Source of the DNA: Syntrophobacterales bacterium
GTDB lineage: Bacteria; Desulfobacterota; Syntrophia; Syntrophales; UBA6807
Direction of reading: 5' to 3'
Assembly (NCBI GenBank): GCA_021159265.1
Contig: JAGGSD010000108.1
Coordinates: 1 to 42,288, forward strand
DNA length: 42,288 nucleotides
In this document: positions 8,615 to 25,004 of the stretch, in pieces
Layout of the letters: each line of letters begins with the position of its first letter
Position numbering within the stretch: the first letter of the stretch is position 1
Made by a program: the position numbers and the translations under genes
Notes under the pieces: model-generated
Told to the model about the DNA's origin: nothing
Seen by the model: the letters and a program-made list of their open reading frames with translations, nothing else
The model's database searches: none

Positions 8615-10303
8615 ATGGAGGAGGAAGTGACTGGTAAAAATAACGCAAGCGAAGTCAACTGGGATGACTATCTCAAGGCATATTATGAGAAACCATCCAG
8701 TTTCAAGAGCTGGTCGGGGTATGATGTAAAGGAAATTTATACTCCGGAAGACAGTCCTGATGAGAAGTATGAAGAAAAAATTGCAGATGCCGGCGAATAC
8801 CCTTTCACCCGGGGAATTCACGCAAACATGTTCCGTGGCCGGTTATGGACTAAAAGGGAGGTTGTAGGCATAGGTTCGCCTGCGGACACACATGAGCGTC
8901 TGCAATATCTGGTTGAGCAGGGGGGCTCCGGGTTGAACACCATCGCTGATGTTACTTATGAGATGGGGCTTGATGCGGATCATCCCTGGGCAGTCAATGA
9001 AGTCGGCTTAACAGGTGTAAATATTACCTCCATTAAGGACATGGAGACGCTGACCAAAGACATACCCCTGGACAAAGTCAGCTGGTCTCTGATTACTGCT
9101 TCCACGGCCGCATCAGTAACCATGGCTCAATACATAGCTGTTGCGGAAGACGCAGGTTATCAACCGGCGGCATTGCGTGGTTCTGTGCAGAATGATCCAA
9201 TACACTTTCGTTACTGCGGTTTCAGGCCTGCATCTCCTTTGGATTTATCCATCAAGCTGGGTTCCGACGTCATGGAATACTGCACAAGGAACCTGCCCAA
9301 GTGGTATTACACGACTGTGAATATGTATGATCTGAGGGAACAGGGGATAACAGCGCCTCAGGAAGTGGCGTTCGGTTTTGGCATCGCCATGTGTTACATA
9401 GATGAACTGATTCGACGTGGATTGAATATTGATGAATTTGCCCCGCGGTTTACCTTTTATGTTTCCTGTCATATGGACATTTTTGAGGAAGTGGCCAAGA
9501 TCAGGGCTGCGCGAAGGATGTGGGCAAAATTGATGAAGGAGAAGTATGGGGCAAAAGACCCGCGTTCGATGCACTTCCGCTTCGCGGTTCATACGGCAGG
9601 GTGTTCGCTTATTCCACAACAGCCGTTGAATAATATTGTGCGGGTTGCGTATGAGGGTCTGACTGCCGTTTTGGCCGGTGTACAGTCTCTCCACTGCTGT
9701 TCATATGATGAGCCCATGTGTCTTCCTTCTGAAAAGGCACATCTCCAGGCCCTGCGAACGCAACAGATCCTTGCATACGAAACGGGGGTAACAAATGTGG
9801 CTGATCCCCTGGGAGGGTCGTACTATGTAGAGAGTCTCACCGACAAGATGGAAGAGGAAGTTTTGAAGGTTATGAAGCGGGTTGAAGATGTCGGGGGAAT
9901 GGAAGAGGCTATTCGCACAGAGTGGCTGGATCACGAACTTGAATCTGAAGCTGTCGAACGGCAAAAGGAACTGGACGATGGCTCGAAACTTGTGGTTGGA
10001 CTCAACATTTTCAAAGAGGAAGAGGAAAAGGAGACGCCTATGGGCGTCCAGCGAGTTTCGCCGCAGTCCGCAAAGCAGCAGATAGAAGAAGTCAAAGAGC
10101 TGAAGCGCACAAGGGATATGAGCAAAGTAAGAGATGCCATAAAGCGTATCAGGGACGAGGCGGGAGAAGGTAAAAATACTATTCCTCCAATGATGGAAGC
10201 TTCAAGAGCATTCGCGACAACCGGAGAAATGTTAGGCACCATTCGCCAGGTATTTGGATATTCATATGATCCTATGGAGATCATTGAATCACCATTCGAT
10301 TAA
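8615..10303 (+). CDS. B12-dependent acyl-CoA mutase large subunit, paralogue 1 (highly divergent active site)
   Basis: MCM-family strings GEYPFTRGI, FAPRFTF, AKIRAARRMWAK and DPLGGSYYVESLT. The substrate-pocket motifs are altered (see findings). The start could instead be GTG 8627, preceded by GGAGGAGG. Confidence 0.85.
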   Translation: MEEEVTGKNNASEVNWDDYLKAYYEKPSSFKSWSGYDVKEIYTPEDSPDEKYEEKIADAGEYPFTRGIHANMFRGRLWTKREVVGIGSPADTHERLQYLVEQGGSGLNTIADVTYEMGLDADHPWAVNEVGLTGVNITSIKDMETLTKDIPLDKVSWSLITASTAASVTMAQYIAVAEDAGYQPAALRGSVQNDPIHFRYCGFRPASPLDLSIKLGSDVMEYCTRNLPKWYYTTVNMYDLREQGITAPQEVAFGFGIAMCYIDELIRRGLNIDEFAPRFTFYVSCHMDIFEEVAKIRAARRMWAKLMKEKYGAKDPRSMHFRFAVHTAGCSLIPQQPLNNIVRVAYEGLTAVLAGVQSLHCCSYDEPMCLPSEKAHLQALRTQQILAYETGVTNVADPLGGSYYVESLTDKMEEEVLKVMKRVEDVGGMEEAIRTEWLDHELESEAVERQKELDDGSKLVVGLNIFKEEEEKETPMGVQRVSPQSAKQQIEEVKELKRTRDMSKVRDAIKRIRDEAGEGKNTIPPMMEASRAFATTGEMLGTIRQVFGYSYDPMEIIESPFD

Positions 10304-10325: not shown

Positions 10326-10733
10326 ATGATCAAAGGAAAGAAGAAAAAGATTAAGGCGCTGGTAACCAAGGTTGGCCTGGACGGTCATGATAGAGGCGCA
10401 AAGGTGGTGGCTTCCATGCTTAAGGAGGCGGGGATGGAGGTGATATACCTGGGGATGTACCAAATGCCGGAAAATATTGTAAAAGCCGCCCTTGATGAAG
10501 ATGTGGATGTTATAGGTTTAAGCTATCTGTCAGGCGAACATCTCATTTTTACTCCCCTAATTGTTGAAGAGATGAAAAAAAACGGTTTGGATAACGTATT
10601 ACTGGTCGCCGGCGGCACTTTCCCCGCAGAAGATATTCCAATAATGGAAGAGATGGGGATTGATAAAGTATTCAGAGCCGGTTCCCTTACTGAGTCTTTT
10701 GTGGAATACATCAGAGATAATGTGAAAGAGTGA
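10326..10733 (+). CDS. Cobalamin-binding small subunit (partner of mutase 1)
   Basis: 135 aa with [15 protein letters not shown] (DxHxxG), GLSYLSGEH (SxL) and VAGGTFP (GG). GAGGAG precedes the ATG. Confidence 0.9.
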   Translation: MIKGKKKKIKALVTKVGLDGHDRGAKVVASMLKEAGMEVIYLGMYQMPENIVKAALDEDVDVIGLSYLSGEHLIFTPLIVEEMKKNGLDNVLLVAGGTFPAEDIPIMEEMGIDKVFRAGSLTESFVEYIRDNVKE

Positions 10734-10743
10734 TAGGGAAAAT

Positions 10744-11736
10744 ATGAAAAAGAGTAAGGATATCGATGAAATGATACAGCAATTGTTTGCCGGTAACCGC
10801 CGAGCCGCTTCTCGTCTCATTACCCGGGTGGAAAATGAGACAGAAGATCATCATGAGATAATGAAGAAAATTTATCCTCGTACCGGGCAGGCGACGATTG
10901 TGGGAATAACAGGTTCCGGCGGAGCTGGAAAAAGCACGCTGACAGACCACCTGATTCAGAAGTTCCGTGAGCAGGGGAAAACAGTCGGAGTTATTGTAGT
11001 AGATCCGAGTAGTCCTTTTTCGGGAGGCGCCTTGTTGGGCGACCGTATCCGTCTTCAACGTCACTTTCTGGATGATGGGGTTTACATAAGAAGTCTGGCG
11101 TCAAGAGGCTGCCTGGGAGGCCTGTCGAGCGCAACCTATAATGTCATTCGTATCCTGGAGGCCATGGGAATGGATATTATCATTGTGGAGACCCTTGGCG
11201 CGGGACAGGATGAGATTGATATTATTCATATCGCAAACACTTGTATTCTGGTGGCGACACCGGGGATGGGTGACGACATCCAGGCCATGAAAGCGGGGAT
11301 CATGGAAATCGCGGATATCATAGCTCTCAACAAATCGGATCTGGAAGGGGCAAACAGATCTCTACGACAGTTGCAAACCGCTTTATCGGTTGCCTCCCTT
11401 GAGGAGGGGCAGTGGGCGCCCCGGGTGATACCGACAGTATCTATAGGAAGCAGGCCTGAAGATCTCAAGGGCATCGACGAACTGGCGTCCGCAATAACAG
11501 AACATCAGGAATACCTGCATACAACGAGATCTATTGATAAGGTCAAATTTGAAAGAGTGGAAGAAGAGCTGGGCCTTGTCTTTAAAGATGAACTGCAGAG
11601 GTTGATTTTCAAGGGGCTGAGAGGGACGGGCAAGAAGAGGAAATATATTAACAGTATTATTGAAGGGAAAAATGATCCCTATTCTGTGGTCGAGGAAATT
11701 TTGAATACCTATTTAATCCGAAAAAAGAAGAAATGA
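10744..11736 (+). CDS. meaB: MeaB/ArgK-type G3E GTPase (mutase metallochaperone)
   Basis: P-loop GITGSGGAGKST, Walker B-like VETLGAGQDE and NKSD specificity motif. It sits between mutase subunit genes, as in icm/hcm/mcm operons. Confidence 0.9.
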   Translation: MKKSKDIDEMIQQLFAGNRRAASRLITRVENETEDHHEIMKKIYPRTGQATIVGITGSGGAGKSTLTDHLIQKFREQGKTVGVIVVDPSSPFSGGALLGDRIRLQRHFLDDGVYIRSLASRGCLGGLSSATYNVIRILEAMGMDIIIVETLGAGQDEIDIIHIANTCILVATPGMGDDIQAMKAGIMEIADIIALNKSDLEGANRSLRQLQTALSVASLEEGQWAPRVIPTVSIGSRPEDLKGIDELASAITEHQEYLHTTRSIDKVKFERVEEELGLVFKDELQRLIFKGLRGTGKKRKYINSIIEGKNDPYSVVEEILNTYLIRKKKK

Positions 11737-13386: not shown

Positions 13387-13413
13387 CTCTCACATTTGTG
13401 GGGACGGGTTGAG

Positions 13414-13809
13414 ATGGCCGGTGAGAGAAAAAAAAGAATATTGATAGCGAAGCCAGGTCTCGACGGTCATGATCGTGGGGCGAAGGTGGTGGCAAGAGCT
13501 CTGCGTAATGCCGGTATGGAAGTCATCTATGCGGGCCTTCACCAGACACCGCTTCAGATAGTCAATACCGCAGTAGATGAGGATGTGGAGGCCATTGGGT
13601 TAAGCATTCTCTCGGGAGCGCACAAAACCATATTTCCCAAAGTTATGTCTCTTCTTAAGCAAAAGGGAATTTCAGATATATTGGTTTTCGGGGGCGGGAC
13701 AATTCCTAAAAAAGATTGGGGTATACTGAAGTCAATAGGTGTCGGAGAGATTTTCCCCCCCGGGTCGGACACACGAGAAATTGCAGCGTATCTGTATAAA
13801 GTTCTGTAG
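13414..13809 (+). CDS. Cobalamin-binding small subunit (partner of mutase 2), C-terminus truncated by repeat insertion
   Basis: [24 protein letters not shown] and FGGGTIP. ATG 13414 is preferred over the ORF-track TTG at 13396. The stop codon TAG lies inside the terminal inverted repeat of the 13806-13912 element. Confidence 0.88.
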
Positions 13810-13912
13810 CCGTTCACGGCTTGAAACTTGAAATCGGAAAGTAGAAATTGGGAAGAACAGTACAAAAGTATGAAGGCCTAATTTCTAATTTCAACGTTCA
13901 GTGAACGGCTAC
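13806..13912. mobile_element. 107-bp palindromic MITE-like element (12-bp perfect TIRs, 8-bp direct-repeat flanks)
   Basis: TIRs GTAGCCGTTCAC (13806-13817) / GTGAACGGCTAC (13901-13912). Flanking direct repeat AAAGTTCT at 13798-13805 and 13913-13920. The interior is an imperfect palindrome (TAGAAATT / AATTTCTA) related to the repeats around glyQ. Confidence 0.65.
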
Positions 13913-13936: not shown

Positions 13937-15619
13937 ATGTCTAAACTGTTTAACGAAGATGTTGTTGAAGAAATAACGAGGAAGGGAGATCGGTGGCAAC
14001 AAAGTACCGGCCATGGCGGAAAAGCAAATGACAGGGAATTTCGGACCCTTTCGGGCATTTCTGTTGAACCTGTGTACACTCCCGAACATACGGCTGATAT
14101 GGATTATTTACGCGATCTGGGATTTCCCGGTGAGCCCCCTTTTGTACGTGGCGTCCATCCGACGATGTACAGGGAACGTGCCTGGACAATGAGACAACTT
14201 GCGGGTTACGGCCCGCCTGAAGAGACCAATAAAAGATATAAATTACTTTTAAGTGAGGGTGCCACAGGGATAAACGGTATTTTCGATTATCCCACCCTTC
14301 GGGGTTATGATTCCACCGATCCCCTGGCCCGTGCCGATTGTGGGCGCGGCGGGGTAGCGATCGATACTCTGGAAGATATGCGTATTCTTTTCGACGGCAT
14401 ACCGCTTGAGAAGGTCAGTAGTTCTCTCGTAACTTGTCAACCGATATGCAACATCACAGTTCAATCCATGTATTTTGCCAATGCCAGGAATCGGGGCGTC
14501 CCGTTAGATAAGCTTACAGGAACGAGTCAAAATGATTTTTTGATGGAGACATGCATGGCTACGGCCCCCGGTGTTTTACCACCAAAAGCATCTTTTAAGC
14601 TGAGTTGTGATGCCATTGAATATTGCACTAAACATGCGCCCCGCTGGAATCCGATCAGTTTTGCCGGCTATAACTACAGAGAGTCCGGATGTACAGCGGA
14701 CCAGGAGGTGGCTTTTGTTATTGCGAATGCTATTGCCTGTTCAGAGGAGATGGTCAGGCGGGGACTCGATGTTGACGATTTTGCACCCAGGCTCAGTTTT
14801 TTTATGAATGGTCAAAGCGATTTTTTTGAAGAAATTGCCAAGTATCGGGCTGCCAGAAGAGTTTGGTATCGGGTAATGAAGGAACGATTCAAAGCGAAGA
14901 ACCCCCGCTCCCTGGCTTTCAGGTTTCATGTACAAACGGCTGGTGTGGCTCTGACGGCTCAACAGCCTTTGAACAACATAGCTCGGTCGGCATATCATGC
15001 CCTTTCGGCGGCGCTGGGAGGCGCTCAATCCGTGCACATAGATGGTTATGATGAGGCGCTGTGTATACCGACTGAGCTTTCATCGATCACCGCTTTAAGA
15101 TGCAACCAGATTTTACAGCTTGAGACCAGGGTGACCAACACCGTAGATCCTCTGGGGGGATCTTATTTTGTGGAGGCGCTAACCAGCAAGCTGGAGGAAA
15201 AAATACTTATGCTCTTGGAGGAAATGGACGGGCTTGGCGGTATTGTTAAGGCAACAGAGACAGGCTGGATACATGGCAAGATTGCTGATGCGGCCTATGA
15301 ATATCAAAATGATATTGAAACGGGGAAAATGCCTGTCGTTGGAGTAAATTGTTACCGGATGGATGACGAGGTGCTTCCCATAGAGCTCTTCGAAGTGCCG
15401 GAAACAGCTAAAGTGCAGGAGAAGAGGCTCAAAAGGATTAAAAAAGAACGTAGTGATTCAGAGGTGCGGCGGGCGCTGGATGCAATTTCCCGTTGTTGTG
15501 ACGAGGATGGGAACCTTATGGAGGTGATAGTGGAATCTGTGCAATCTCTTGTAACGGAGGGAGAAATAACAGAGGTCCTGAAGGATAAATACGGTGTATG
15601 GAATCCGCCGCTATTTTGA
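13937..15619 (+). CDS. B12-dependent acyl-CoA mutase large subunit, paralogue 3 (non-canonical pocket)
   Basis: GEPPFVRGVHPTMYRERAWTMRQ, FAPRLSFFM, AKYRAARRVW and DPLGGSYFVEALT. GAGGAG lies 9 nt before the ATG. Confidence 0.9.
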   Translation: MSKLFNEDVVEEITRKGDRWQQSTGHGGKANDREFRTLSGISVEPVYTPEHTADMDYLRDLGFPGEPPFVRGVHPTMYRERAWTMRQLAGYGPPEETNKRYKLLLSEGATGINGIFDYPTLRGYDSTDPLARADCGRGGVAIDTLEDMRILFDGIPLEKVSSSLVTCQPICNITVQSMYFANARNRGVPLDKLTGTSQNDFLMETCMATAPGVLPPKASFKLSCDAIEYCTKHAPRWNPISFAGYNYRESGCTADQEVAFVIANAIACSEEMVRRGLDVDDFAPRLSFFMNGQSDFFEEIAKYRAARRVWYRVMKERFKAKNPRSLAFRFHVQTAGVALTAQQPLNNIARSAYHALSAALGGAQSVHIDGYDEALCIPTELSSITALRCNQILQLETRVTNTVDPLGGSYFVEALTSKLEEKILMLLEEMDGLGGIVKATETGWIHGKIADAAYEYQNDIETGKMPVVGVNCYRMDDEVLPIELFEVPETAKVQEKRLKRIKKERSDSEVRRALDAISRCCDEDGNLMEVIVESVQSLVTEGEITEVLKDKYGVWNPPLF

Positions 15620-15653
15620 TTCTTGAAAATTGTAATATGAGAGAGAGGAATAG

Positions 15654-16040
15654 ATGAAAAAAGCGATCAGGGTAGTGATAGCGCGTCTTGGCATGGATGC
15701 TCACTGGAGGGGAAGCGTTGTGGTAGCGCGCGCCATACGTGATGCGGGAATGGAAGTTATCTATCTGGGGAATCAGATGCCGGAAGCTATTGTTGAAACT
15801 GCCATACAGGAAGATGTTAATGTGATAGGTCTGAGCACACTGTCGGGAAACCATCTGGAATTAGCGCCGGAGGTGGTCAGATTGCTCAGAGAAAAGGGGA
15901 TAAGGGACATACTGGTGATTCTTGGAGGAACCATCCCACCTGATGATATCCCAAAGCTCAAAGCGGCAGGTATAGCGGAGGTCTTTGGTACGGGGTCATC
16001 TTTGGAAAAGATTGTCCGGTTTGTATCAGGATCAGATTGA
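15654..16040 (+). CDS. Cobalamin-binding small subunit (partner of mutase 3) with variant DAHWRG motif
   Basis: 128 aa with ARLGMDAHWRGSVVV (DxHxxG kept; Lys to Arg, Gly to Ala, Asp to Trp relative to the other three), GLSTLSGNH and LGGTIP. Confidence 0.85.
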   Translation: MKKAIRVVIARLGMDAHWRGSVVVARAIRDAGMEVIYLGNQMPEAIVETAIQEDVNVIGLSTLSGNHLELAPEVVRLLREKGIRDILVILGGTIPPDDIPKLKAAGIAEVFGTGSSLEKIVRFVSGSD

Positions 16041-16081
16041 ATAAATTTTACAAAGTAAACATTTTAGACGAGGAAGGAGGA

Positions 16082-17533
16082 ATGGATAAAGTGAAGGGAA
16101 TTACAGCTTACGGCATTTATTTGCCATATCACAGACTGAAACGCGAGACTATTTTTAAGGCTATGGGGTGGTTTAACCCTGGGGTTGGAGGCTTGGCTAA
16201 AGGTGAGAAAGCCGTAGCCAATTTTGATGAAGACAGTCTTACCATGGCTGTTGCCGCCGGTATGGATTGTTTCCCGGATATCGGCAGAGAAGAAATTGAT
16301 GCTCTGTATCTTGCCTCGACAACTTTTCCATACAAGGAAAGGGGAAATGCCTCAATTGCCGCCGGGGCATTGAATCTTTCTGCAAATACCCGAACCGCCG
16401 AGTTTTCCGGGTGTCTGAAATCGGGGACGACCGCGCTTATTTCGGCCCTCAACGCATCCGATTCAGAAACAACGATGGTCTGCGCATCCGACACTCGTCT
16501 TGGCAAGGCCGGCGGAACCGAGGAGCAGATGACGGGAGATGGAGCCGCTGCCGTTGCTGTGGGGAGTAAAGGAGTAATTGCTTCTCTTATTGACCATTAT
16601 TCTATCTCTTATGATTTTCCGGATCACAGGCGATTGGATTCAGATAAGTTTATCCGAAGCTGGGAAGAAAGATGGATGCGGGAAGCGGGTTATTTTAAAA
16701 TATTGCCGGAAGCTGTCAATGGTCTCCTTGCCAGGTGCGGGCTTCAAATCAGCGACATTACCAAAGTGGTTTATGCTCCCCCCAATCTCAGAGATCATAA
16801 AGCCATGGCTCAGAGTCTGGGCATAAAACCTGAGAGAGTTCAGTCTCCCCTAATCGAACCGGTGGGGAACACAGGGGCGGCGCATCCTCTGGTTATGCTG
16901 ATAGCGGCGCTGGAAGAAGCTCAGCCGGGCGATAAAATACTGGTGGCGAGTATGGGAAGCGGTAGCGACGCCTTGCTCTTTGAGGTTACGGAAGAGATAA
17001 CAAAACTGAAATCAAGGAACAAATTGAAGAAGAATCTGGATTACAAAGGTGAGCTTGACAATTATACAAAATACCTCTCATTCAAGGGTATGCTGGAAAA
17101 AGAGATAGGAATACGCGGTGAAGAAGTTTCACCCACCAGTCTATCCCTTCAATGGAGGGAACGGAACGCGGTTTTGAAACTGGTTGGCGCAAAATGCAAG
17201 GTTTGCGGGACCCCTCAGTTTCCCGCCGAAACTGTATGCATTAATCCCGAGTGCGGGGCGGTGGGTCAGATGGAGGAGTATTCCTTTTCAGACAAGACAG
17301 GTCACCTCTTTACCTTTACGGCCGATCACCTGGCTTTTACGGAAGACCCGCCGGGTCTGTATGGAATAGTAGATTTTGATGAGGGAGGCAGGTACTGGTT
17401 TGATATTACCGACTGTCGTCTGGAATCATTAAAGGTAGGTCAACCTGTGCAGATGACCTTTAGAAGAAGATATCTTGATGAGGCTCGTGGCATTGCCGGC
17501 TATTTCTGGAAAGCAATGCCCTTTAAGGGTTAA
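16082..17533 (+). CDS. HMG-CoA-synthase-like condensing-enzyme domain fused to a DUF35 Zn-ribbon/OB-fold domain
   Basis: N-terminal FDEDSLTMAV (Glu), EFSGCLKSGTTAL (Cys) and VGNTGAA (Asn). C-terminal CKVCG...CINPEC four-Cys ribbon plus OB-fold region. GGAAGGAGG precedes ATG 16082; the ORF-track TTG at 16037 is rejected. Confidence 0.8.
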   Translation: MDKVKGITAYGIYLPYHRLKRETIFKAMGWFNPGVGGLAKGEKAVANFDEDSLTMAVAAGMDCFPDIGREEIDALYLASTTFPYKERGNASIAAGALNLSANTRTAEFSGCLKSGTTALISALNASDSETTMVCASDTRLGKAGGTEEQMTGDGAAAVAVGSKGVIASLIDHYSISYDFPDHRRLDSDKFIRSWEERWMREAGYFKILPEAVNGLLARCGLQISDITKVVYAPPNLRDHKAMAQSLGIKPERVQSPLIEPVGNTGAAHPLVMLIAALEEAQPGDKILVASMGSGSDALLFEVTEEITKLKSRNKLKKNLDYKGELDNYTKYLSFKGMLEKEIGIRGEEVSPTSLSLQWRERNAVLKLVGAKCKVCGTPQFPAETVCINPECGAVGQMEEYSFSDKTGHLFTFTADHLAFTEDPPGLYGIVDFDEGGRYWFDITDCRLESLKVGQPVQMTFRRRYLDEARGIAGYFWKAMPFKG

Positions 17534-17548
17534 TGATATGTAACTATT

Positions 17549-17639
17549 CAGGTTCAAAGTTCAACGGTCCACGGTTCAAAAACGATGAACATAGCCGGGA
17601 TGAAGATAAGGCAACCGTGTGTGAACCTGACAACCTGAG
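17549..17639. repeat. Imperfect palindromic intergenic element (GGTTCAA / TGAACC repeats)
   Basis: CAGGTTCA (17549-17556) pairs with TGAACCTG (17622-17629). GGTTCAA-like units are repeated on the left arm and AACCTGA units on the right arm. Confidence 0.5.
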
Positions 17640-17682
17640 TAATTGAGATGATACTACGTAAATTTAAAAAGGAGTAATAGAA

Positions 17683-18885
17683 ATGGCAGAAGGTATAAAA
17701 AATAAAGTCGCTATTGTCGGCATGGGGTGCACCAGATTTGGAGAACATTGGGACAGAAGCGCCGAATCACTGGCCTCTGAGGCATTTGAAGAGGCCATTG
17801 CCGATGCGGGAATTGAAAAGAAAGATATTGATGCAGCCTGGTTTTCAAGTTGTTTCGATGAAGTCAATGTAGGAAAAAGCGCCATCCCTCTGGCGGGCGC
17901 TCTAAAATTGCCGTTTATTCCTATCACCAGGGTGGAGAATTTCTGCGCCAGCGGCACCGAGGCCATCCGGGCGGCCAGTTATGCCGTGGCTTCCGGGGCG
18001 TGTGACGTAGCACTGGCATTGGGAGTGGAAAAGTTGAAAGACATCGGTTACGGCGGTCTGCCGGATTTCAGCCAGCTTCGGGGCATATATAACCGGCAGA
18101 TATTCCCCAATGTTACGGCGCCGGGTCAGTTCGCCATGCTTGCAACCAGGTATTTTGACAGATACGGCCTCAGCCCGGAAGAGGGCAAAAGAACACTGGC
18201 AAAAATATCCTCAAAAAGTCACGCGAACGGAGCTCTGACCCCCAAGGCTCATTTACGGAGAAAAGTTGATGTTGAAACTATTATGAACGCTCCCATGATT
18301 GCCTGGCCTTTAGGTCTCTTTGATTGTTGCGGCGTTACGGAAGGGTCGGCGGCGGCCATTATTGTCAGAGCGGAAGACGCCAAGAAATTTCGCAAGGATC
18401 CAATTTATGCTAAAGCTCTTCAGATTGCTGTCAGCCCGGAAGAGGAATATAGATATCAGCAGTGGGACGGGACGCATGTAGAGACAACCTATCGTTGCGG
18501 GGTAAATGCCTATAAAGAGGCCGGCGTGAAAAATCCTCGTGAAGAGATAAGCATGATGGAGGTGCACGATTGTTTTTCCATAACTGAACTGGTGACATAC
18601 GAGGATTTGCAGATCTCGCCCAGGGGGAAGGCTAAAGAGGATATAGATGCGGGCTTTTATGACCTGGATGGGAAAATACCGTGTCAATCGGACGGGGGCC
18701 TGAAGAGTTTTGGCCATCCTATCGGCGCTTCCGGTATAAGAATGGCTTATGAGGTGTATAAACAGCTCCAGGGAAAATGCGGGGAACGGCAAATTAGAGA
18801 TCCTCACCTTGGACTTACCCATAATCTGGGAGGTTTCCCGGCAAACTGTGTAATAGGAGTTACTATTTGGGGGAATGAACTGTAA
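17683..18885 (+). CDS. SCP-x / archaeal-type thiolase (partner of the DUF35 protein)
   Basis: VAIVGMGCTRFGEHWD N-terminus, nucleophile VENFCASGTEAIR, HDCFS and GGLKSFGHPIGASG. These are typical of non-specific lipid-transfer-type thiolases. Confidence 0.88.
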   Translation: MAEGIKNKVAIVGMGCTRFGEHWDRSAESLASEAFEEAIADAGIEKKDIDAAWFSSCFDEVNVGKSAIPLAGALKLPFIPITRVENFCASGTEAIRAASYAVASGACDVALALGVEKLKDIGYGGLPDFSQLRGIYNRQIFPNVTAPGQFAMLATRYFDRYGLSPEEGKRTLAKISSKSHANGALTPKAHLRRKVDVETIMNAPMIAWPLGLFDCCGVTEGSAAAIIVRAEDAKKFRKDPIYAKALQIAVSPEEEYRYQQWDGTHVETTYRCGVNAYKEAGVKNPREEISMMEVHDCFSITELVTYEDLQISPRGKAKEDIDAGFYDLDGKIPCQSDGGLKSFGHPIGASGIRMAYEVYKQLQGKCGERQIRDPHLGLTHNLGGFPANCVIGVTIWGNEL

Positions 18886-20301: not shown

Positions 20302-21966
20302 ATGACTAAAGAGACCGAAATTGCAAAAGAAAAGAAAAGATGGGAGGCGGAAACACTTTCCGGCCAGTCGTATAAAAAAAATGTGAAGGCCATGCTTACG
20401 GGTGTCGATCTCGATGTCGACGTTCTTTATACGCCTGCAGACATTAAAGATACGGACTATTTAGAAGATATTGGTTTCCCCGGCGAATTTCCCTTTACAC
20501 GAGGTGTCTACCCCTCAATGTACCGTGGAAGGCTGTGGACGATGAGACAGTATTCGGGATTTGATACTCCGGAAGAATCCAATGCAAGGTATAAGTACCT
20601 GTTGGCGCAGGGGAATACAGGACTCAGTGTGGCCTTTGATCTTCCGAGCCAGATGGGATACGACTCCGACAATGAAGACATTGAGGAAGAAGTGGGAAAG
20701 GTAGGCGTGGCCATCAGCACATTAAAAGATATGGAAATCCTTTTCGACGGCATCAATCTGGGTGAAATTACGACTTCGTTTACCATTAATGGAATCGCCT
20801 CCATTATTCTTGCCATGTATGTTGCCGTTGCGGATGAACGGGGCATTCCTCGAGAGAAGATAGGCGGGACCATTCAAAACGATATACTGAAGGAGTATGC
20901 CGCGAGGGGCACTTACCTGTATCCCCCAAAGCCGTCGCTGCGGCTGGTTGCGGACGCCATTGAATATTGTATGAATGATGTTCCGAAATTCAATCCTATC
21001 AGTATATCGGGCGGACATTATCGAAGTGGGGGCGCGAGTATGGTTCAGGAAGCTTCGTTTACCATGCTGAACGGGATGACCTATATTGAGTCTATAATTG
21101 CCAGGGGTATTGACGTGGATAAATTTGCGCCCCGGTTGAGTTACCTTCTGGTGAATCACTGTAACATTTTCGAGGAAGTTGCCAGATATCGCGCTGTCAG
21201 GAGGATCTGGGCGCATGTTATGAGAGACAGGTTCAATGCGAAAGACCCGAGATCCATGATGTTCCGGGTTTACTCCGCCGGATGCGGGGATGTCTTAACA
21301 TACGCGGAACCGGAAAATAATATTGTCCGGTTAACCCTGATGACCCTGGCCGGTATCCTGGGAGGGAGCCAGGCCTATTTTACACCCGGCTATGATGAAG
21401 CCTATGCCCTGCCGACTGAGGAGACAGCGCTGTTAGGTCTTCGCACACAGCAGATCATTGCCTATGAATCGGGAGTGCCCAATACCGTGGATCCTCTTGG
21501 AGGTTCCTATTATATAGAGTGGCTTACCGACAAAATCGAAGATGAGATCCTGAAGTATATGAAACATCTGGAAGAGAGAGGGAATATGGTCGAGCTCGTT
21601 GAGCAGGGTTATATCCAGAGTGAAATGGCCAGGATTGCATTTGAGAAGACCAAGAAAAAGATGTCCGGCGAGGAAGTGGTGGTGGGAGTCAATAAATTTC
21701 AGGCCTCGGAGAAGAAAGAACAGATTCAGCTTCACCAGACAGATCCAGAGGTAATTAAAAAACGTATAGAGAGTGTGAAGCAGGTGAAAAAAGAGCGTGA
21801 TAACGACAAGGTTGCTCATTGTTTGAAGGATCTGAAAAAAGCGGCAGAGGGGACTGAGAACATGATGCCTTATATACTGGAAACAGTGAAGGCCTATGGA
21901 TCGGTGGAGGAGATTGTTACGACCCTGAAGGAAGTATTCGGAGAATTTAAAGAGCCGCTGATATAG
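20302..21966 (+). CDS. B12-dependent acyl-CoA mutase large subunit, paralogue 4 (keeps the MCM Tyr/Arg carboxylate clamp)
   Basis: GEFPFTRGVYPSMYRGRLWTMRQYSGF, GLSVAFDLPS, GTIQNDILKEYAARGTYLYPP, FAPRLSY and DPLGGSYYIEWLT. Confidence 0.9.
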   Translation: MTKETEIAKEKKRWEAETLSGQSYKKNVKAMLTGVDLDVDVLYTPADIKDTDYLEDIGFPGEFPFTRGVYPSMYRGRLWTMRQYSGFDTPEESNARYKYLLAQGNTGLSVAFDLPSQMGYDSDNEDIEEEVGKVGVAISTLKDMEILFDGINLGEITTSFTINGIASIILAMYVAVADERGIPREKIGGTIQNDILKEYAARGTYLYPPKPSLRLVADAIEYCMNDVPKFNPISISGGHYRSGGASMVQEASFTMLNGMTYIESIIARGIDVDKFAPRLSYLLVNHCNIFEEVARYRAVRRIWAHVMRDRFNAKDPRSMMFRVYSAGCGDVLTYAEPENNIVRLTLMTLAGILGGSQAYFTPGYDEAYALPTEETALLGLRTQQIIAYESGVPNTVDPLGGSYYIEWLTDKIEDEILKYMKHLEERGNMVELVEQGYIQSEMARIAFEKTKKKMSGEEVVVGVNKFQASEKKEQIQLHQTDPEVIKKRIESVKQVKKERDNDKVAHCLKDLKKAAEGTENMMPYILETVKAYGSVEEIVTTLKEVFGEFKEPLI

Positions 21967-22008
21967 ATTAACCGCAGGATGTACCTGGCGTGGGGGGGGA
22001 TAATTATC

Positions 22009-22515
22009 ATGAAAAACTTATCTGTTCTGGTTTCCGGAATTGATAAAGTGGGCGAATTTTTTCTCAGGGCATGTGCCTTTTTATTGTTATTGATGCTTGT
22101 AACTGTTCTTTATGATGTTTTGATGAGATATTTCTTTTCGAGGCCGACTTCCTGGGCGCTGGAGATAAATGAATATTTCTTTATCTTTCTTTCAATAATG
22201 CCGGCAGCCGAAATATTACGTCAGAAGAAACATATAGGTCTGGATATATTTTTAAAAAAATTGTCCGGAAGACGTCAGCTCTACGTTGAGATATTTTATT
22301 CGATTTGTATGCTCTTCTTTTCTTCAATCGTGGTCTGGCGGGGATTTGAAATGACTGCTAATGCCTACAAATTTGGTATGGCCTCCAGTTCTCTGCTGTC
22401 GTTTCCCCTCTTTATCCCATATTCTCTAATCCCCGCTGGTTTTGGGTGGTTAAGCTTGCAGTTGGTTGTTAAGATCGGCAGTAATATTAATATGTTAGCG
22501 GGGAGGTACGAATGA
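22009..22515 (+). CDS. TRAP transporter small permease (DctQ-type)
   Basis: About 168 aa, four hydrophobic segments, with a 4-bp ATGA overlap with the following DctM gene. The start could also be 21979. Confidence 0.8.
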   Translation: MKNLSVLVSGIDKVGEFFLRACAFLLLLMLVTVLYDVLMRYFFSRPTSWALEINEYFFIFLSIMPAAEILRQKKHIGLDIFLKKLSGRRQLYVEIFYSICMLFFSSIVVWRGFEMTANAYKFGMASSSLLSFPLFIPYSLIPAGFGWLSLQLVVKIGSNINMLAGRYE

Positions 22516-23816
22516 GCGTAACATTTGCCGCCATTTTAGTATTCATCATATTATTGCTGCTTATTTTTATGGGTTGCCCGGTTTTTGCTTCTCTCGGCAT
22601 TTCCGCAACCATCGGTATTCTACTGCTGCGAGGATGGGTGGGGGTGAGTCAGATTCCCTCCACGATGTATGGACAGTTATCAAGCTTTGTCCTGATAGCC
22701 GTTCCAATGTACCTGTTAATGGGCGATGTTCTTTTTAAGACAGGTATCGGTGCTGATCTTTATGATGTGTTCAGTAAATGGTTTAACCGTATTCCCGGTG
22801 GATTGGCAATGGCCAGTGTCTTTGCATGCGCAGTGTTTGGGGCCATGTGCGGCATCAGTATTGCCGGTGTCGCAACGATTGGAGTAATAGCAATTCCCGA
22901 AATGTTAAAAAGGGGGTATAGCCCGCCTCTTGCAGCCGGGTCTGTGACGGCAGCCGGGGCTCTGGCCATGCTGATTCCGCCAAGCCTGCTTTTTATTCTG
23001 TACGGCGCTATAGCCGAAGTGTCTCTTGATAAACTTTTTGTGGGCGGTATTGTTCCCGGTCTGATTCTGGCATTAATGATGTGTATTTATATCGCGATTC
23101 GCGTATTGATTAATCCCCAATCAGCGCCCATGCCGGATGAAGTTATTACATGGAGCGACAGGATTCGACCGTTAAAGAGACTCTGGCCTGCGATTCTGCT
23201 TATTGTATGGGTCCTGGGTTCCATATATGGTGGAATTGCCACTCCTACAGAAGCCGGAGCTTTCGGCGCCGCAGGGGCCTATCTCATTGCCATATTTGTT
23301 TATCGTACTTTCAGCCTGAAGATGCTTGCCGAAACGTTGTTGACCACTGCCCGTACTACCGGTGCAGTGTGCCTTATTGTAGCTTGCGCCATGGTATTTT
23401 CCCAATTCATGAATCTGGCCAGGGTTCCTGAAAACCTGGCGCAATTTCTGGTTTCACTGTCTATGCCTGATTGGGTGCTTATGTTTATTGTTATGGTGTT
23501 TCTTCTTATTCTGGGCATGCTCATTGACGGCGCATCAATGGTTCTGGTTACCACTCCCATCCTGCTGCCGGTTGTGGTAGCCGCCGGGTATGACCCCCTG
23601 TGGTATGGAATAATACTGGTTCTGAATTTGGAAATGGCGGTCATAACGCCTCCGGTGGGTTTAAATCTATATACCTTAAAGAGTGTTACGGATGCGGTGT
23701 CAATGGCCGAAATACTCCGCGGGACGATGCCTTATGTCGCCGTGGAATTTGCCTGTTTGATGTTTTTTGTGTTTTTCCCGGAATTGGCGCTATGGCTGCC
23801 GTCAACTATGAAATAA
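22512..23816 (+). CDS. TRAP transporter large permease (DctM-type)
   Basis: 434-aa polytopic membrane protein. Paralogous along its length to 28641-29933 (for example PTEAGAFGAAGA vs PTEAGAVGMILS; ITPPVGLNLYTLK vs ETPPVGLNLYVLK). Confidence 0.9.
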   Translation: MSVTFAAILVFIILLLLIFMGCPVFASLGISATIGILLLRGWVGVSQIPSTMYGQLSSFVLIAVPMYLLMGDVLFKTGIGADLYDVFSKWFNRIPGGLAMASVFACAVFGAMCGISIAGVATIGVIAIPEMLKRGYSPPLAAGSVTAAGALAMLIPPSLLFILYGAIAEVSLDKLFVGGIVPGLILALMMCIYIAIRVLINPQSAPMPDEVITWSDRIRPLKRLWPAILLIVWVLGSIYGGIATPTEAGAFGAAGAYLIAIFVYRTFSLKMLAETLLTTARTTGAVCLIVACAMVFSQFMNLARVPENLAQFLVSLSMPDWVLMFIVMVFLLILGMLIDGASMVLVTTPILLPVVVAAGYDPLWYGIILVLNLEMAVITPPVGLNLYTLKSVTDAVSMAEILRGTMPYVAVEFACLMFFVFFPELALWLPSTMK

Positions 23817-23954
23817 GCGACGGGAAAAAGAGGGCGTTATGAGTGTGGCGGATCACGATCGTTCGGGCCATTCTCGTAGCAGTTAATAGTAAACTTCATA
23901 ACTTAACATTCCGGTGATTTGTTGTAACGCCGGATTATAAAAAAGGGGGTTATC

Positions 23955-25004
23955 ATGTTAAGGGTAATTTTTACAAGGAGTAAACTGGCGGCGGTGAAAG
24001 TCTTTGTGATGTTTTCCATTGTGATGTTTTTACTTACGACGGGCTTTGTGGCGGTTTCCAGTGCCGGAGAGAGCAACAAAGAGTTAAAACTGGTTATGGC
24101 GACATATCTCCTGCCGGCATATAAGGGGATATTCCCTGCGCTTCCAAGATTTGTTGATTATGTGAATGAGCATGGAAAGGGGATAGTGCAGATTGATTTC
24201 TATCATTCAGGGACTCTTCTAAAAGCGAAGGAATTGTTATCAGGCGTCCAGTCAGGCACAGCGGATATTATTTTTCAGACAGATGCCTATATAAGTGGGA
24301 CTTATCCGATGTTGGGCGCCATCCAGCTTCCTCTGCTTTATAACAGTGAAGAGGAGAGATATCAGAAAAATAAGCTTGGCACTCCGGTTTCCCATTTTTT
24401 GCGTGAAAAGATGAAAGAGAAAGGGATGGCTTTGCTGGCTATCGGTCAAGTTCCTACGGAATATATCTGGACAGTCAAAAAACCGGTGAGAAAACCATCG
24501 GACCTGAAGGGATTGCGTATGAGAGTTTCAGGGAAGATCGACTCTAAAACCGTGGCTACATTTGGCGCTTCTCCCGTCAGAATGCCTTCAGCCGAGGCGT
24601 TCATGGCTCTCAAACGGGGGGTTGTTGATGGCATAATGGCTTATTCCGGCACTATAGCAGGTCGGAGATTAGATGAAGTTCTAAAATATTGTACAATTGG
24701 CGCTTTTGGCAATATGCACGTGCTTATATTGACCCCTCAGGAGCGCTGGGAAAGCTGGCCGGAAAACGCGCGCAAGATCATTATGGAGGCGGCGAAACGA
24801 TATGAAGCCGATATGTATAAGACATGCACGAAATATATCGAAACTTTGTTCGAGACAAGGTTCAAAAATATAAAAGTAATCAGGCTTGATGACAGAGAAA
24901 GGTCCGCTTTTAAAAAAGACCTTACCCAAACCTACAGCTGGTGGGCGAATATGGTGGGAAAAAGTGAAGGCGAAAGGGCGCTGAAGATTGTCCGGGGCAA
25001 ATGA
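23955..25004 (+). CDS. TRAP solute-binding protein (DctP-type), copy 1
   Basis: Signal-peptide-like N-terminus. DctP-family strings HGKGIVQIDFYHSGTLL and LKGLRMRVSG (carboxylate-binding Arg region). GGGGG precedes the ATG. Confidence 0.88.
   Translation: MLRVIFTRSKLAAVKVFVMFSIVMFLLTTGFVAVSSAGESNKELKLVMATYLLPAYKGIFPALPRFVDYVNEHGKGIVQIDFYHSGTLLKAKELLSGVQSGTADIIFQTDAYISGTYPMLGAIQLPLLYNSEEERYQKNKLGTPVSHFLREKMKEKGMALLAIGQVPTEYIWTVKKPVRKPSDLKGLRMRVSGKIDSKTVATFGASPVRMPSAEAFMALKRGVVDGIMAYSGTIAGRRLDEVLKYCTIGAFGNMHVLILTPQERWESWPENARKIIMEAAKRYEADMYKTCTKYIETLFETRFKNIKVIRLDDRERSAFKKDLTQTYSWWANMVGKSEGERALKIVRGK

What the first reader, a model, noticed from the sequence alone, without database searches (positions are those of the whole stretch)
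13937..16040. Mutase paralogue 3 lacks the catalytic His and the carboxylate clamp, and pairs with a B12 subunit whose cobalt-ligand motif is altered
The large subunit reads WTMRQ-L-AGYG, GING-I-FDYPT and GTSQNDFLMETCM-A-TAPGVLPP. That gives Ala at the 207 position, with a one-residue insertion. It also reads ISFAGY-N (His244 position is Asn) and SVHIDGYDEA instead of SLHTN. Its partner small subunit is the only one of the four with RLGMDAHWRG instead of K-x-G-x-DGHDRG. The His ligand and Asp are kept, but the Lys of the Lys-Asp-His relay is Arg, and the residues flanking the His change (Gly to Ala, Asp to Trp). Co-variation of both subunits suggests a functionally distinct enzyme rather than a redundant copy.
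Basis: partly seen in the sequence, partly recalled or inferred. Interest (0 to 1): 0.65.

Follow-up and report, generated by a model that had tools for sequence, protein, structure and literature searches.

The report
Uncharacterised B12 acyl-CoA mutase clade
This gene pair encodes a vitamin-B12-dependent enzyme that rearranges the carbon skeleton of CoA-bound acids; it belongs to a widespread but unstudied branch from uncultured anaerobes that has rebuilt its active site, so its substrate is probably new, and databases wrongly label it methylmalonyl-CoA mutase.

Summary
L3 (13937-15619) and S3 (15654-16040) are intact, adjacent genes, each preceded by a ribosome-binding site.

The changes define a clade. 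In 121 of 121 relatives (72-99% identity) L3 has Leu88 (MCM Tyr89), Asn113, Met203 (Lys202), a one-residue insertion with no Arg or Gln at the 207 position, Asn246 (His244) and Asp369 (Asn366). All CoA and adenosine contact residues checked are also kept.

S3 keeps the DxHxxG, SxL and GG cobalamin motifs; only the x positions differ (DAHWRG). All 57 small-subunit genes found beside L3-type genes in 58 species-level genome loci are D-A-H-W-type. Two more distant clusters with Asn244 and Asp366 also pair with D-x-H-W-R-G.

All hosts are uncultured Desulfobacterales, Syntrophales or Syntrophobacteraceae.

Losing His244 is not unique. Among the 150 nearest cluster representatives only 79 keep it, and L1 in this window has Asp there.

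Best reading: an active adenosylcobalamin acyl-CoA mutase, closest to 2-hydroxyisobutyryl-CoA mutase, acting on an unknown non-carboxylated acyl-CoA. Recurrent neighbours are a GctAB-like CoA-transferase and an M24 hydrolase.

This is a new variant of a known kind, of moderate interest.

The parts
13937..15619 (+). L3: large (substrate-binding, TIM-barrel) subunit of an acyl-CoA mutase, 560 aa
   Evidence: PF01642 at 604 bits over the full length. Best solved relative is HcmA 4R3U, E=5e-143. The AF2 model has TM 0.83 to 4R3U. A GAGGAG ribosome-binding site lies upstream of the ATG.
15654..16040 (+). S3: small cobalamin-binding (Rossmann-like) subunit, 128 aa
   Evidence: PF02310 at 80.5 bits. 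TIGR00640 at 140 bits. Best solved relatives are 2YXB and the HcmB chain 4R3U_C. It lies 34 nt downstream of L3 and has its own ribosome-binding site.
14198..14200 (+). Leu88 codon, at the position of MCM Tyr89 (ICM Phe80, HCM Ile90)
   Evidence: Leu in 121 of 121 clade members.
14273..14281 (+). Asn113-Gly114-Ile115, at MCM Ser114-Val115-Ala116. Ile115 occupies the position of HcmA Asp117.
   Evidence: These residues lie on predicted barrel strand 111-116.
14528..14584 (+). Remodelled beta4 loop Q198-P216. It carries Phe201, Met203 (MCM Lys202) and Thr205, a one-residue insertion, and Thr209 opposite MCM Arg207.
14672..14674 (+). Asn246 codon, at the position of MCM His244
   Evidence: Asn in 121 of 121 members. 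It lies just after predicted strand 241-243.
15038..15043 (+). Ile368-Asp369, at MCM Thr365-Asn366. Glu373 (MCM Glu370) is kept.
   Evidence: Asp369 directly follows predicted strand 365-368.
15684..15713 (+). S3 cobalamin loop R11-L-G-M-D15-A-H17-W18-R-G20 (the DxHxxG motif)
10744..11736 (+). MeaB-type G-protein chaperone. It is the only one in the window and is presumed to serve L3/S3 and the other mutases.
   Evidence: PF03308 at 290.8 bits. It sits in the same position in the conserved TetR | L1 S1 MeaB L2 S2 L3 S3 operon of relatives.
16037..18885 (+). Downstream genes, probably co-transcribed: an HMG-CoA-synthase-like protein fused to DUF35 (16037-17533) and an SCP-x-type thiolase (17683-18885)
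   Evidence: The order L3 S3 HMGCS-DUF35 thiolase SDR MaoC MaoC recurs in L048, whose L3 is 84% identical. The TTG start overlaps the S3 stop codon.

Best explanation
L3 and S3 are the two subunits of an active, adenosylcobalamin-dependent acyl-CoA mutase that belongs to a distinct, uncharacterised subfamily.

Proposed mechanism:
- S3 binds the cofactor base-off/His-on through His17, backed by Asp15 and Arg11.
- L3 threads an acyl-CoA through its TIM barrel to the upper face of the corrin.
- Co-C homolysis yields the 5'-deoxyadenosyl radical, which abstracts a substrate hydrogen. The thioester carbon then migrates 1,2 and the hydrogen is returned.

What differs is the acyl pocket. It has lost every basic residue that canonical mutases place there (Lys202, Arg/Gln207, His244). 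It has gained Asp369, Asn246 and Asn113, surrounded by added hydrophobic and aromatic residues.

The substrate is therefore not methylmalonyl-, ethylmalonyl- or any other carboxylated acyl-CoA. I infer a short, probably branched acyl-CoA whose side group is neutral or positively charged, that is a hydroxy-, amino- or plain alkyl acyl-CoA. The thioester carbonyl would be held by the Asn246 amide instead of being partly protonated by His.

The acid is supplied by a CoA-transferase or ligase, and the product enters beta-oxidation-type steps.

Status of each step:
- Shown here: fold, family, conserved cofactor and CoA contacts, clade-wide signature, strict L3-S3 pairing.
- Inferred: that the enzyme is active, the nature of the substrate, and the role of Asn246, Asp369 and Trp18.
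For: Family and fold:
- PF01642 and PF02310 hits.
- HcmA 4R3U at E=5e-143.
- AF2 model with TM 0.83 to 4R3U.

Intact machinery:
- The positions equivalent to MCM Met78, Arg82, Thr85, Arg87, Ser164, Thr195, Gln197, Arg283, Ser285, Phe287, His328, Gln330, Gln361, Ser362, His364, Asp369 and Glu370 are conserved in 121 of 121 members. The roles of these residues come from my knowledge of the MCM structures.
- S3 keeps DxHxxG, SxL and GG.

Strong purifying selection on the new residues:
- 25 signature positions are at least 91% conserved in a clade with about 73% mean identity.
- These include Leu88, Asn113, Val165, Cys167, Met203, Thr205, Asn246, Ile368 and Asp369.

Autonomous unit:
- The L3-S3 pair occurs alone or in varied contexts in 58 species-level genome loci. 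All 57 small-subunit genes identified there are HW-type.

Not MCM:
- 527 bits against a cut-off of 876.

Context pointing to a small free acid that is activated to its CoA ester:
- A GctA-like CoA-transferase pair in 7 loci (1POI at E=1e-47).
- A SatP/YaaH channel gene inserted between L3 and S3 in L019.
- Sigma-54 two-component regulators in about 10 loci.
- An M24B hydrolase with all five metal ligands in 14 of 53 loci across three lineages.
- MaoC, SDR and thiolase genes in the window lineage.
Against: - No biochemical data exist for any member, and no cultured host was found.
- In MCM, His244 substitutions cut turnover by two to three orders of magnitude and expose the radical intermediates. 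This is my recollection of the literature; the H244A mutant structure 1E1C appears. An Asn at this position could therefore mean low activity or different chemistry.
- Most Syntrophales loci have no MeaB gene nearby.
- The neighbourhood is heterogeneous, and about half of the loci share no neighbour with any other. The substrate inference therefore rests on a minority of loci and on an electrostatic argument made without coordinates.
- The AF2 model is only moderately confident (mean pLDDT 76), and residues 370-408 are poorly modelled.
Confidence: 0.72

Rival explanations
1. A plain hydrophobic branched-chain isomerase of the ICM/PCM type. Candidate reactions are 2-methylbutyryl-CoA to valeryl-CoA, isovaleryl-CoA to pivalyl-CoA, or a longer 2-methylacyl-CoA to its linear isomer. 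On this reading the three mutases of the conserved L1-L2-L3 operon divide the branched acyl-CoAs derived from Val, Ile and Leu or from branched acids. Asp369 and Asn246 would be structural rather than substrate-binding. This is a sub-case of the best explanation with a specific substrate class.
For: - Most pocket changes are to hydrophobic residues: Leu88, Val/Ile115, Val165, Cys167, Met203, Val/Ile/Thr209, Val366, Ile368, Phe201 and Phe242.
- A TetR regulator of the acyl-CoA-sensing type precedes the operon.
- Liv-type ABC transporters, an amino-acid permease and an M24 dipeptidase-like gene lie nearby.
- Genes of the leucine/isovalerate type (carboxyltransferase, enoyl-CoA hydratase, HMG-CoA lyase-like) and beta-oxidation genes are in the window.
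Against: - Characterised ICM, IcmF, PCM and HCM all keep the His244 equivalent and Lys202. This is from my own knowledge; 49 of 50 generic sequences sampled here keep both.
- An invariant new Asp plus two new Asn residues are hard to explain for a purely aliphatic side chain.
- L2 (Leu89, Gln207, His244) already looks like the ICM/PCM-type enzyme of the operon.
Confidence: 0.3
2. A catalytically dead or regulatory paralogue. It would be an MutA-like scaffold subunit, a cobalamin store or sensor, or a partner that forms hetero-oligomers with L1 or L2.
For: - The residue regarded as the general acid (His244) is missing.
- P. shermanii MCM shows that inactive paralogous subunits exist in this family. 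MutA chains are distant matches.
- L3 sits in an operon with two other mutases.
Against: - Unlike MutA, L3 keeps every CoA and adenosine contact residue checked.
- It has its own dedicated B12 subunit with an intact DxHxxG.
- The L3-S3 pair occurs without L1 or L2 in most genomes.
- The substituted pocket residues are themselves invariant. That pattern indicates selection on a working site, not decay.
Confidence: 0.07
3. Different radical chemistry on a CoA ester. Instead of a thioester shift, the enzyme would migrate or eliminate OH or NH2 in the manner of an eliminase or aminomutase, or would use a fragmentation-recombination route that needs no acid catalyst. Asp369 and Asn246 would bind the migrating heteroatom.
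For: - His is replaced by Asn and a new Asp appears at the ends of barrel strands beta5 and beta8.
- Asp, Asn and Glu residues bind the OH or NH3+ groups in diol dehydratase, ethanolamine ammonia-lyase and glutamate mutase (my own knowledge).
- The pocket shifts by about three charge units towards negative.
- The M24 hydrolase and the amino-acid transport genes nearby would fit an amino-acid-type substrate.
Against: - No precedent exists within the acyl-CoA mutase fold.
- No PLP-binding partner is encoded nearby.
- The argument rests on sequence position only, without distances to the substrate.
Confidence: 0.1
4. A redundant copy of methylmalonyl-CoA mutase, as the public annotation states.
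For: Every database name given to clade members is 'methylmalonyl-CoA mutase'.
Against: - Tyr89, Arg207 and His244 are all absent.
- The score is below the curated equivalog cut-off.
- L4 in the same window keeps Tyr89, Arg207 and His244.
Confidence: 0.01

Closest known systems
2-hydroxyisobutyryl-CoA mutase HcmAB (Aquincola tertiaricarbonis, PDB 4R3U)
   Same: It is the best solved relative of both subunits: L3 E=5e-143, and about 43% identity in the structural alignment with TM 0.83; S3 E=1e-29. It has the same architecture of separate large and small subunits. An aliphatic residue occupies the Tyr89 position, and there is no Arg at 207.
   Different: HcmA Asp117, which binds the substrate hydroxyl, is Ile115 in L3. 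HcmA keeps Lys, Gln208, His and Asn where L3 has Met203, Thr209 plus an insertion, Asn246 and Asp369. HcmB reads DGHDRG.
Isobutyryl-CoA mutase / IcmF and pivalyl-CoA mutase
   Same: These are AdoCbl acyl-CoA mutases for non-carboxylated substrates. They lack the Tyr/Arg carboxylate clamp and work with a MeaB-type chaperone. L2 in the same operon resembles this type.
   Different: IcmF is a much weaker match to L3: 206 bits by sequence, TM 0.73. ICM has Phe and Gln and keeps His; L3 has Leu, no Gln and Asn. The residue details for ICM and PCM come from my own knowledge and were not tested here.
Methylmalonyl-CoA mutase (P. shermanii 1REQ, human 2XIJ)
   Same: Same fold (TM 0.82-0.84). The CoA and adenosine contact residues and the base-off/His-on motif are the same.
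   Different: Tyr89 becomes Leu, Arg207 becomes Thr/Val/Ile, His244 becomes Asn, Asn366 becomes Asp and Lys202 becomes Met. L3 has a separate small subunit, and it scores below the MCM equivalog cut-off.
Other metagenomic mutase-like clusters that lack His244 (for example P0241, P0268, the L090 large subunit, and L1 of this window)
   Same: They belong to the same unexplored radiation. P0241 (52% identical) shares Leu, Asn, Met and Asn and pairs with DCHYRG. L090 (51%) and P0268 (39%) share Asn244 and Asp366 and pair with D-x-H-W-R-G.
   Different: None has a known function. They differ at position 366 and in gene context: P0241 lies among P450 and carboxylate-reductase genes, and P0268 lies next to an HGD-D-type dehydratase gene.

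Membership tests
AdoCbl-dependent acyl-CoA mutase superfamily (PF01642 large subunit plus PF02310 B12 domain) | Full-length match of the large subunit to the mutase TIM-barrel domain | tested here: met
   PF01642 at 604 bits over profile positions 1-512. TIGR00641 at 612 bits against a cut-off of 304.
AdoCbl-dependent acyl-CoA mutase superfamily (PF01642 large subunit plus PF02310 B12 domain) | Same three-dimensional fold as solved mutases | tested here: met
   AF2 model with pTM 0.79. Foldseek gives TM 0.83 to 4R3U_A and 0.84 to 1REQ_A.
AdoCbl-dependent acyl-CoA mutase superfamily (PF01642 large subunit plus PF02310 B12 domain) | Conserved CoA-channel and adenosine-contact residues (MCM Arg82, Thr85, Arg87, Ser164, Thr195, Gln197, Arg283, Ser285, His328, Gln330, Gln361, Glu370) | tested here: met
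   All are identical in 121 of 121 clade members. The list of contact residues is from my knowledge of the MCM structures.
AdoCbl-dependent acyl-CoA mutase superfamily (PF01642 large subunit plus PF02310 B12 domain) | Partner B12 domain with DxHxxG, SxL and GG (base-off/His-on signature), encoded next to the large subunit | tested here: met
   S3 has D15-A-H17-W-R-G20, LSTLSG and GGT. All 57 small-subunit genes identified in the 58 related loci lie immediately downstream.
AdoCbl-dependent acyl-CoA mutase superfamily (PF01642 large subunit plus PF02310 B12 domain) | Actual binding of adenosylcobalamin, His-on, and radical turnover | not testable with these tools
   Needs protein, UV-vis/EPR spectroscopy and activity assays.
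AdoCbl-dependent acyl-CoA mutase superfamily (PF01642 large subunit plus PF02310 B12 domain) | MeaB-type G-protein chaperone associated with the mutase | tested here: inconclusive
   It is present in the window (10744-11736) and in the Desulfobacterales operons. It is not among the immediate neighbours in the Syntrophales loci.
Methylmalonyl-CoA mutase (EC 5.4.99.2) | Carboxylate clamp formed by Tyr89 and Arg207 | tested here: not met
   Leu88, and Thr209 with a one-residue insertion.
Methylmalonyl-CoA mutase (EC 5.4.99.2) | His244 hydrogen-bonded to the thioester carbonyl | tested here: not met
   Asn246, in 121 of 121 members.
Methylmalonyl-CoA mutase (EC 5.4.99.2) | Score above the curated equivalog threshold | tested here: not met
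   NF006944 at 527 bits against a cut-off of 876.
2-hydroxyisobutyryl-CoA mutase (HCM) | Ile90 and Asp117 (hydroxyl-binding), with Gln208 and His245 | tested here: not met
   Leu88 is similar, but Ile115 replaces Asp117, there is no Gln, and Asn replaces His. The roles of these HCM residues are from my own knowledge.
Isobutyryl-CoA mutase (ICM/IcmF) | A Phe/Gln pair in place of Tyr89/Arg207, with His retained | tested here: not met
   Leu88, Thr209 and Asn246. NF045497 at 243 bits against a cut-off of 1500.
Inactive mutase beta subunit (MutA-like) | Degenerate CoA and cofactor contact residues, and no functional B12 domain | tested here: not met
   The contact residues are intact and a dedicated B12 subunit with the His ligand is present. 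MutA chains are only distant matches, at E=1e-23 to 5e-26.

The most novel reading that the evidence does not exclude
L3/S3 founds a new functional class within the acyl-CoA mutase fold. It would be a B12 radical isomerase for CoA esters that carry a cationic or hydrogen-bond-donating group, for example an omega- or beta-aminoacyl-CoA or a tertiary hydroxyacyl-CoA. An Asn246/Asp369 pair would replace the canonical His as the catalytic apparatus, and Trp18 beside the cobalt-ligating His would retune the cofactor. It would act together with a GctAB-like CoA-transferase and an M24 hydrolase in an unknown anaerobic pathway for small nitrogenous or hydroxylated acids.
Probability: 0.2. Interest if true: 0.8.

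Novelty: new variant of a known kind. Interest (0 to 1): 0.55.

Why it matters
Only about half a dozen substrate specificities are known for B12-dependent acyl-CoA mutases. Each new one has opened a pathway, as with ethylmalonyl-CoA, 2-hydroxyisobutyrate and pivalate, or has given a tool for engineering carbon skeletons.

This clade is abundant in sulfate-reducing and syntrophic bacteria from sediments, peat and digesters. It is uniformly mislabelled as methylmalonyl-CoA mutase. It dispenses with the histidine that mechanistic work treats as the acid catalyst of the rearrangement.

Finding its substrate would add a reaction to anaerobic carbon degradation. It would also test how essential partial proton transfer is to the 1,2 shift. 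Finally, it would correct metabolic reconstructions that count these genes as part of the propionate/succinate pathway.

The wider observation may matter as much as this clade: nearly half of the nearest sequence clusters lack that histidine, which suggests the family's chemistry is much less explored than assumed.

Tried and rejected
- **Literature.** Nine full-text searches covered acyl-CoA mutase specificity residues, pivalyl-CoA mutase, Desulfobacteraceae paralogues, an M24-mutase operon and 'Desulfacyla'. None found a paper on this clade. The JBC structure papers on HCM, IcmF and PCM are not held, so the roles of those residues rest on my own knowledge.
- **Regulatory RNA.** An Rfam scan of the whole window found no cobalamin riboswitch or any other family. 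The promoter and terminator scans were not above background.
- **Converse test of the pairing.** The metagenome scan seeded with S3 peptides was swamped by the generic DAGMEVIY pattern. It returned only three HW-type small subunits. Two of them had readable upstream genes, and both of those were Asn244/Asp366 type. This is supportive but thin. No further genome or metagenome scans were available.
- **Which large-subunit residue goes with Trp18.** Partner genes were fetched for seven other clusters. His/Asp, Gln/Asp and Ala/Asp types have no HW. Asn/Ser types have HY or HT. Only the Asn/Asp types have HW. The sample is small, and the HW small subunits resemble each other, so shared ancestry explains most of the pattern.
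- **Cultured hosts.** None were found among 80 genome loci or eight protein clusters. The genome scan is based on peptide patterns and can miss distant orthologues.
- **Structure.** AF2 confirmed the fold but returns no coordinates, so distances from Asn246, Asp369 and Trp18 to the substrate and the corrin could not be measured.
- **Hetero-oligomer idea (L1/L2/L3).** Rejected as a requirement, because L3-S3 occurs without L1 and L2 in most genomes.
- **Smithella-type C6 propionate pathway.** Considered and dropped. No named Smithella genome appeared among the hits, and nothing in the gene context supports it.
Full report
**1. What is in the window**

The window is one long, mostly plus-strand catabolic cluster from a Desulfobacteraceae genome. 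The closest named protein, at 99% identity, comes from 'Desulfobacteraceae bacterium 4484_190.3'.

The cluster holds four large-subunit genes of the acyl-CoA mutase family:
- L1, 8615-10303
- L2, 11743-13386
- L3, 13937-15619
- L4, 20302-21966

It also holds four small B12-binding subunit genes:
- S1, 10326-10733
- S2, 13396-13809
- S3, 15654-16040
- S4, 26233-26637

There is a single MeaB chaperone gene (10744-11736). A divergent TetR gene lies upstream. The rest of the cluster encodes beta-oxidation enzymes, TRAP transporters, a CoA ligase, a carboxyltransferase, an enoyl-CoA hydratase and an HMG-CoA-lyase-like protein.

The finding concerns L3 and S3. These are intact ORFs 34 nt apart, each preceded by a ribosome-binding site.

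**2. The observation**

All the quoted strings are present. The mapping below to P. shermanii MCM numbering comes from the HMMER alignments to solved structures and from a 172-sequence MAFFT alignment.

| L3 residue | MCM position |
|---|---|
| Leu88 | Tyr89 |
| Asn113-Gly114-Ile115 | Ser114-Val115-Ala116 (Ile115 sits at the position of HcmA Asp117) |
| Met203 | Lys202 |
| Thr205 | Phe/Tyr204 |
| one-residue insertion, then Thr209 | Arg207 |
| Asn246 | His244 |
| Ile368-Asp369 | Thr365-Asn366 |
| Glu373 (kept) | Glu370 |

The point is immaterial.

S3 reads R11-L-G-M-D15-A-H17-W18-R-G20. S1, S2 and S4 read K-x-G-L-D-G-H-D-R-G.

**3. These are clade features, not accidents**

A search of 5.8 billion proteins returned at least 120 clusters at 72-99% identity. 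All come from metagenomes or from MAGs of Desulfobacteraceae, 'Deltaproteobacteria', Thermodesulfobacteriota and Desulfatiglandaceae. Every one carries RQLAG, GING[V/I]FDYP, QNDFLMET plus the insertion, GYNYRE and S[V/I]H[I/V]D.

I compared these 121 sequences with 50 generic mutases, which included HcmA, human MCM, P. shermanii MCM, L2 and L4. This gave 25 positions that are conserved in both sets but differ between them. They cluster on barrel strands beta2-beta5 and beta8 of the AF2 model.

In contrast, every residue I know to contact CoA or the adenosyl group in MCM is identical in 121 of 121 members. That pattern indicates a working enzyme with a redesigned acyl pocket. It does not fit a decaying copy or an MutA-like scaffold subunit.

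**4. Pairing of the two subunits**

In one-genome-per-species contigs, 58 loci encode an L3-type large subunit at 59-84% identity. A small-subunit gene was identified in 57 of them. In every case it lies immediately downstream and reads D-A-H-W-[R/T]-G. The top 120 homologues of S3 all read D-[A/S]-H-W-R-G, apart from one where the motif was not found.

To look beyond the clade, I fetched the partner genes of other clusters.

| Large subunit: residues at MCM positions 244 / 366 | Source | Small-subunit loop |
|---|---|---|
| His / Asn | generic mutases | DGHDRG |
| His / Asp | P0256 | DGHDQG |
| Gln / Asp | P0246 | DIHDVG |
| Ala / Asp | P0253 | DEHTWG |
| Asn / Ser | P0251 | DGHTTG |
| Asn / Ser | P0241 (nearest sister, 52% identity) | DCHYRG |
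| Asn / Asp | L090 (51% identity) | DIHWRG |
| Asn / Asp | P0268 (39% identity) | DVHWRG |
| Asn / Asp | L3 clade | DAHWRG |

Trp after the ligating His was therefore seen only with the Asn/Asp combination.

The HW small subunits also share RG-[S/A/V]-V in place of RG-A-K, and a one-residue deletion. They resemble one another, so the correlation mostly reflects one ancestral superclade and not repeated convergence.

The DxHxxG, SxL and GG motifs are intact. 'Altered cobalt-ligand motif' is therefore too strong. The Lys-to-Arg change is not fixed either: 5 of the 57 loci have Lys.

**5. Family placement**

L3 is a full-length PF01642 protein (604 bits). Its best solved relative is the large subunit of 2-hydroxyisobutyryl-CoA mutase (4R3U, E=5e-143). 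An AF2 model (pTM 0.79) superposes on 4R3U with TM 0.83, on MCM structures with TM 0.82-0.84 and on IcmF with TM 0.73.

L3 reaches only the generic 'mutase N-terminal domain' model of NCBIfam. It falls far below the MCM equivalog cut-off (527 against 876 bits) and the IcmF cut-off (243 against 1500 bits). It fails the defining residues of MCM, ICM and HCM (see the membership table).

All public names for clade members are 'methylmalonyl-CoA mutase'. On this evidence those names are misannotations.

**6. How unusual is the loss of His244?**

A full HMMER scan of 1.84 billion cluster representatives found 2,607 relatives at E<=1e-30. Among the 150 nearest representatives, the position of His244 holds:
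- His in 79
- Asn in 23
- Asp in 9
- Gln in 6
- other residues in the rest

The Asn366 position is Asn in only 45, and Lys202 is Lys in 81.

The window itself contains a second example. L1 has Asp at position 244, Cys at 366 and His at 202. L3 is therefore one well-populated branch of a large, unexplored radiation of mutase-like enzymes with rebuilt pockets.

**7. Gene context**

Three recurring arrangements appear.

(a) In Desulfobacterales there is a conserved operon: TetR (divergent) | L1 S1 MeaB L2 S2 L3 S3. It is usually followed by an M24B (creatinase/prolidase-type) hydrolase, then by Liv-type ABC transporter genes and CoA ligases.

(b) In Syntrophales a sigma-54 histidine kinase and response regulator precede L3 and S3. 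A two-subunit CoA-transferase follows, close to Acidaminococcus glutaconate CoA-transferase (1POI, E=1e-47). An M24B gene is sometimes present. In L019 a SatP/YaaH carboxylate-channel gene lies between L3 and S3.

(c) L3-S3 stands alone among unrelated genes.

The M24B protein keeps all five metal ligands. It is the most widely shared neighbour: 14 of 53 loci, across three lineages.

In the window and in its close relative L048, the M24 gene is replaced by an HMG-CoA-synthase-like/DUF35 fusion and an SCP-x-type thiolase. In L048 an SDR and a MaoC hydratase pair follow directly.

The pair is therefore an autonomous module. It is fed by a CoA-transferase or a ligase acting on a small free acid.

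**8. Mechanism proposed**

The shown facts are those of sections 2-7. The rest is inference.

Because the cofactor-binding and CoA-binding machinery is intact, I take L3/S3 to be a normal base-off/His-on AdoCbl radical isomerase.

Relative to all characterised mutases, the pocket loses three basic or protonatable side chains (Lys202, Arg/Gln207, His244). It gains one acidic residue (Asp369) and two amides (Asn113, Asn246), set among additional hydrophobic and aromatic residues. This excludes a carboxylated substrate. It favours a neutral or cationic side group: hydroxy, amino or plain alkyl.

The Asn246 amide can still hydrogen-bond the thioester carbonyl, but it cannot transfer a proton. The rearrangement would then either proceed more slowly or be assisted in another way. 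Substituting MCM His244 costs two to three orders of magnitude in turnover; this is my own recollection, and the H244A mutant structure 1E1C appears.

I cannot name the substrate. The amino-acid and osmolyte flavour of several neighbours (M24B hydrolase, amino-acid permease, Liv transporter, GctAB-like transferase) leaves an aminoacyl- or hydroxyacyl-CoA mutase as a live possibility. The hydrophobic lining and the beta-oxidation neighbours leave a branched-alkyl substrate equally live.

**9. Verdict**

- Three corrections apply. The cobalt-ligand consensus is intact. The co-variation is largely clade inheritance. Loss of His244 is widespread in metagenomic relatives and also occurs in L1.
- L3/S3 is a new variant of a known kind of enzyme. 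It has no characterised member, no cultured host was found, and the database label is wrong.
- Interest is moderate. It would become high if the substrate proves to be a new chemical class.

Noticed in passing
window 8615-10303 (L1), with S1 at 10326-10733: L1 is an even more divergent mutase. It reads WTKRE-V (not MRQ-Y), with Asn at MCM 114, His at 202, Asp at 244 and Cys-Cys at 365/366, and His328 and Gln330 are changed. Yet it pairs with a canonical DGHDRG small subunit. It is conserved at 76-85% identity as the first gene of the TetR | L1 S1 MeaB L2 S2 L3 S3 operon in relatives.
   Followed up: partly
window 20302-21966 (L4) and 26233-26637 (S4): L4 keeps Tyr89, Arg207 and His244. It has Gly at Tyr243, Tyr at His328, Ala at Gln330 and QAYFTP instead of QSLHTN. 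Its presumed small subunit S4 is separated from it by 4.3 kb of TRAP-transporter genes. It may act on a substituted succinyl- or malonyl-CoA.
   Followed up: no
window 13806-13912 (S2-L3 spacer): A single-copy, roughly 107-nt, near-perfect long hairpin: dG -42.7 kcal/mol, z = -5.3 against shuffles. It is absent from the equivalent spacer in relatives L001, L004, L006 and L082. It has no Rfam match and no second copy in the window.
   Followed up: partly
window 16037-18885: An HMG-CoA-synthase-like protein is fused at its C-terminus to a DUF35 zinc-ribbon/OB domain. Its TTG start overlaps the S3 stop codon. An SCP-x-type thiolase follows. Together these are the three parts of the archaeal thiolase/HMGCS/DUF35 complex, here in a bacterial catabolic operon.
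   Followed up: no
nearest 150 cluster representatives (P0241-P0390): About 47% of the nearest 50%-identity cluster representatives of the mutase family lack the His244 equivalent (Asn 23, Asp 9, Gln 6 and others). Only 45 of 150 keep Asn366. This points to a large unexplored radiation of mutase-like enzymes.
   Followed up: partly
L006:12112-13308, L082:12217-13407, L081:12204-13343, L019:15378-16724 and others: An M24B (Creatinase_N plus Peptidase_M24) hydrolase with all five metal ligands is the most widely shared neighbour of L3-S3: 14 of 53 loci across three lineages. The second substrate-site His (HE) is replaced by Asn. In the window this gene is replaced by the HMGCS-DUF35 and thiolase genes.
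   Followed up: partly
L164:6001-8089 (P0241 and its partner): The nearest sister cluster of L3 (52% identity; Leu, Asn, Met and Asn, but Ser at 366) pairs with a DCHYRG small subunit. It sits among P450, haem-oxygenase-like and carboxylic-acid-reductase-type genes. That context looks like secondary metabolism, unlike the anaerobic catabolic contexts of L3.
   Followed up: no
window 21979-29933: Two DctQ/DctM pairs and three DctP solute-binding paralogues of TRAP transporters are interleaved with the L4 and S4 genes. This suggests uptake of several related carboxylates.
   Followed up: no
database names of P0002, P0009, P0010, P0034, P0391-P0447: Every named member of the L3 clade is annotated 'methylmalonyl-CoA mutase', although the MCM-defining residues are missing and the score is below the curated cut-off. 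Metabolic reconstructions of these MAGs are likely to miscount MCM genes.
   Followed up: yes
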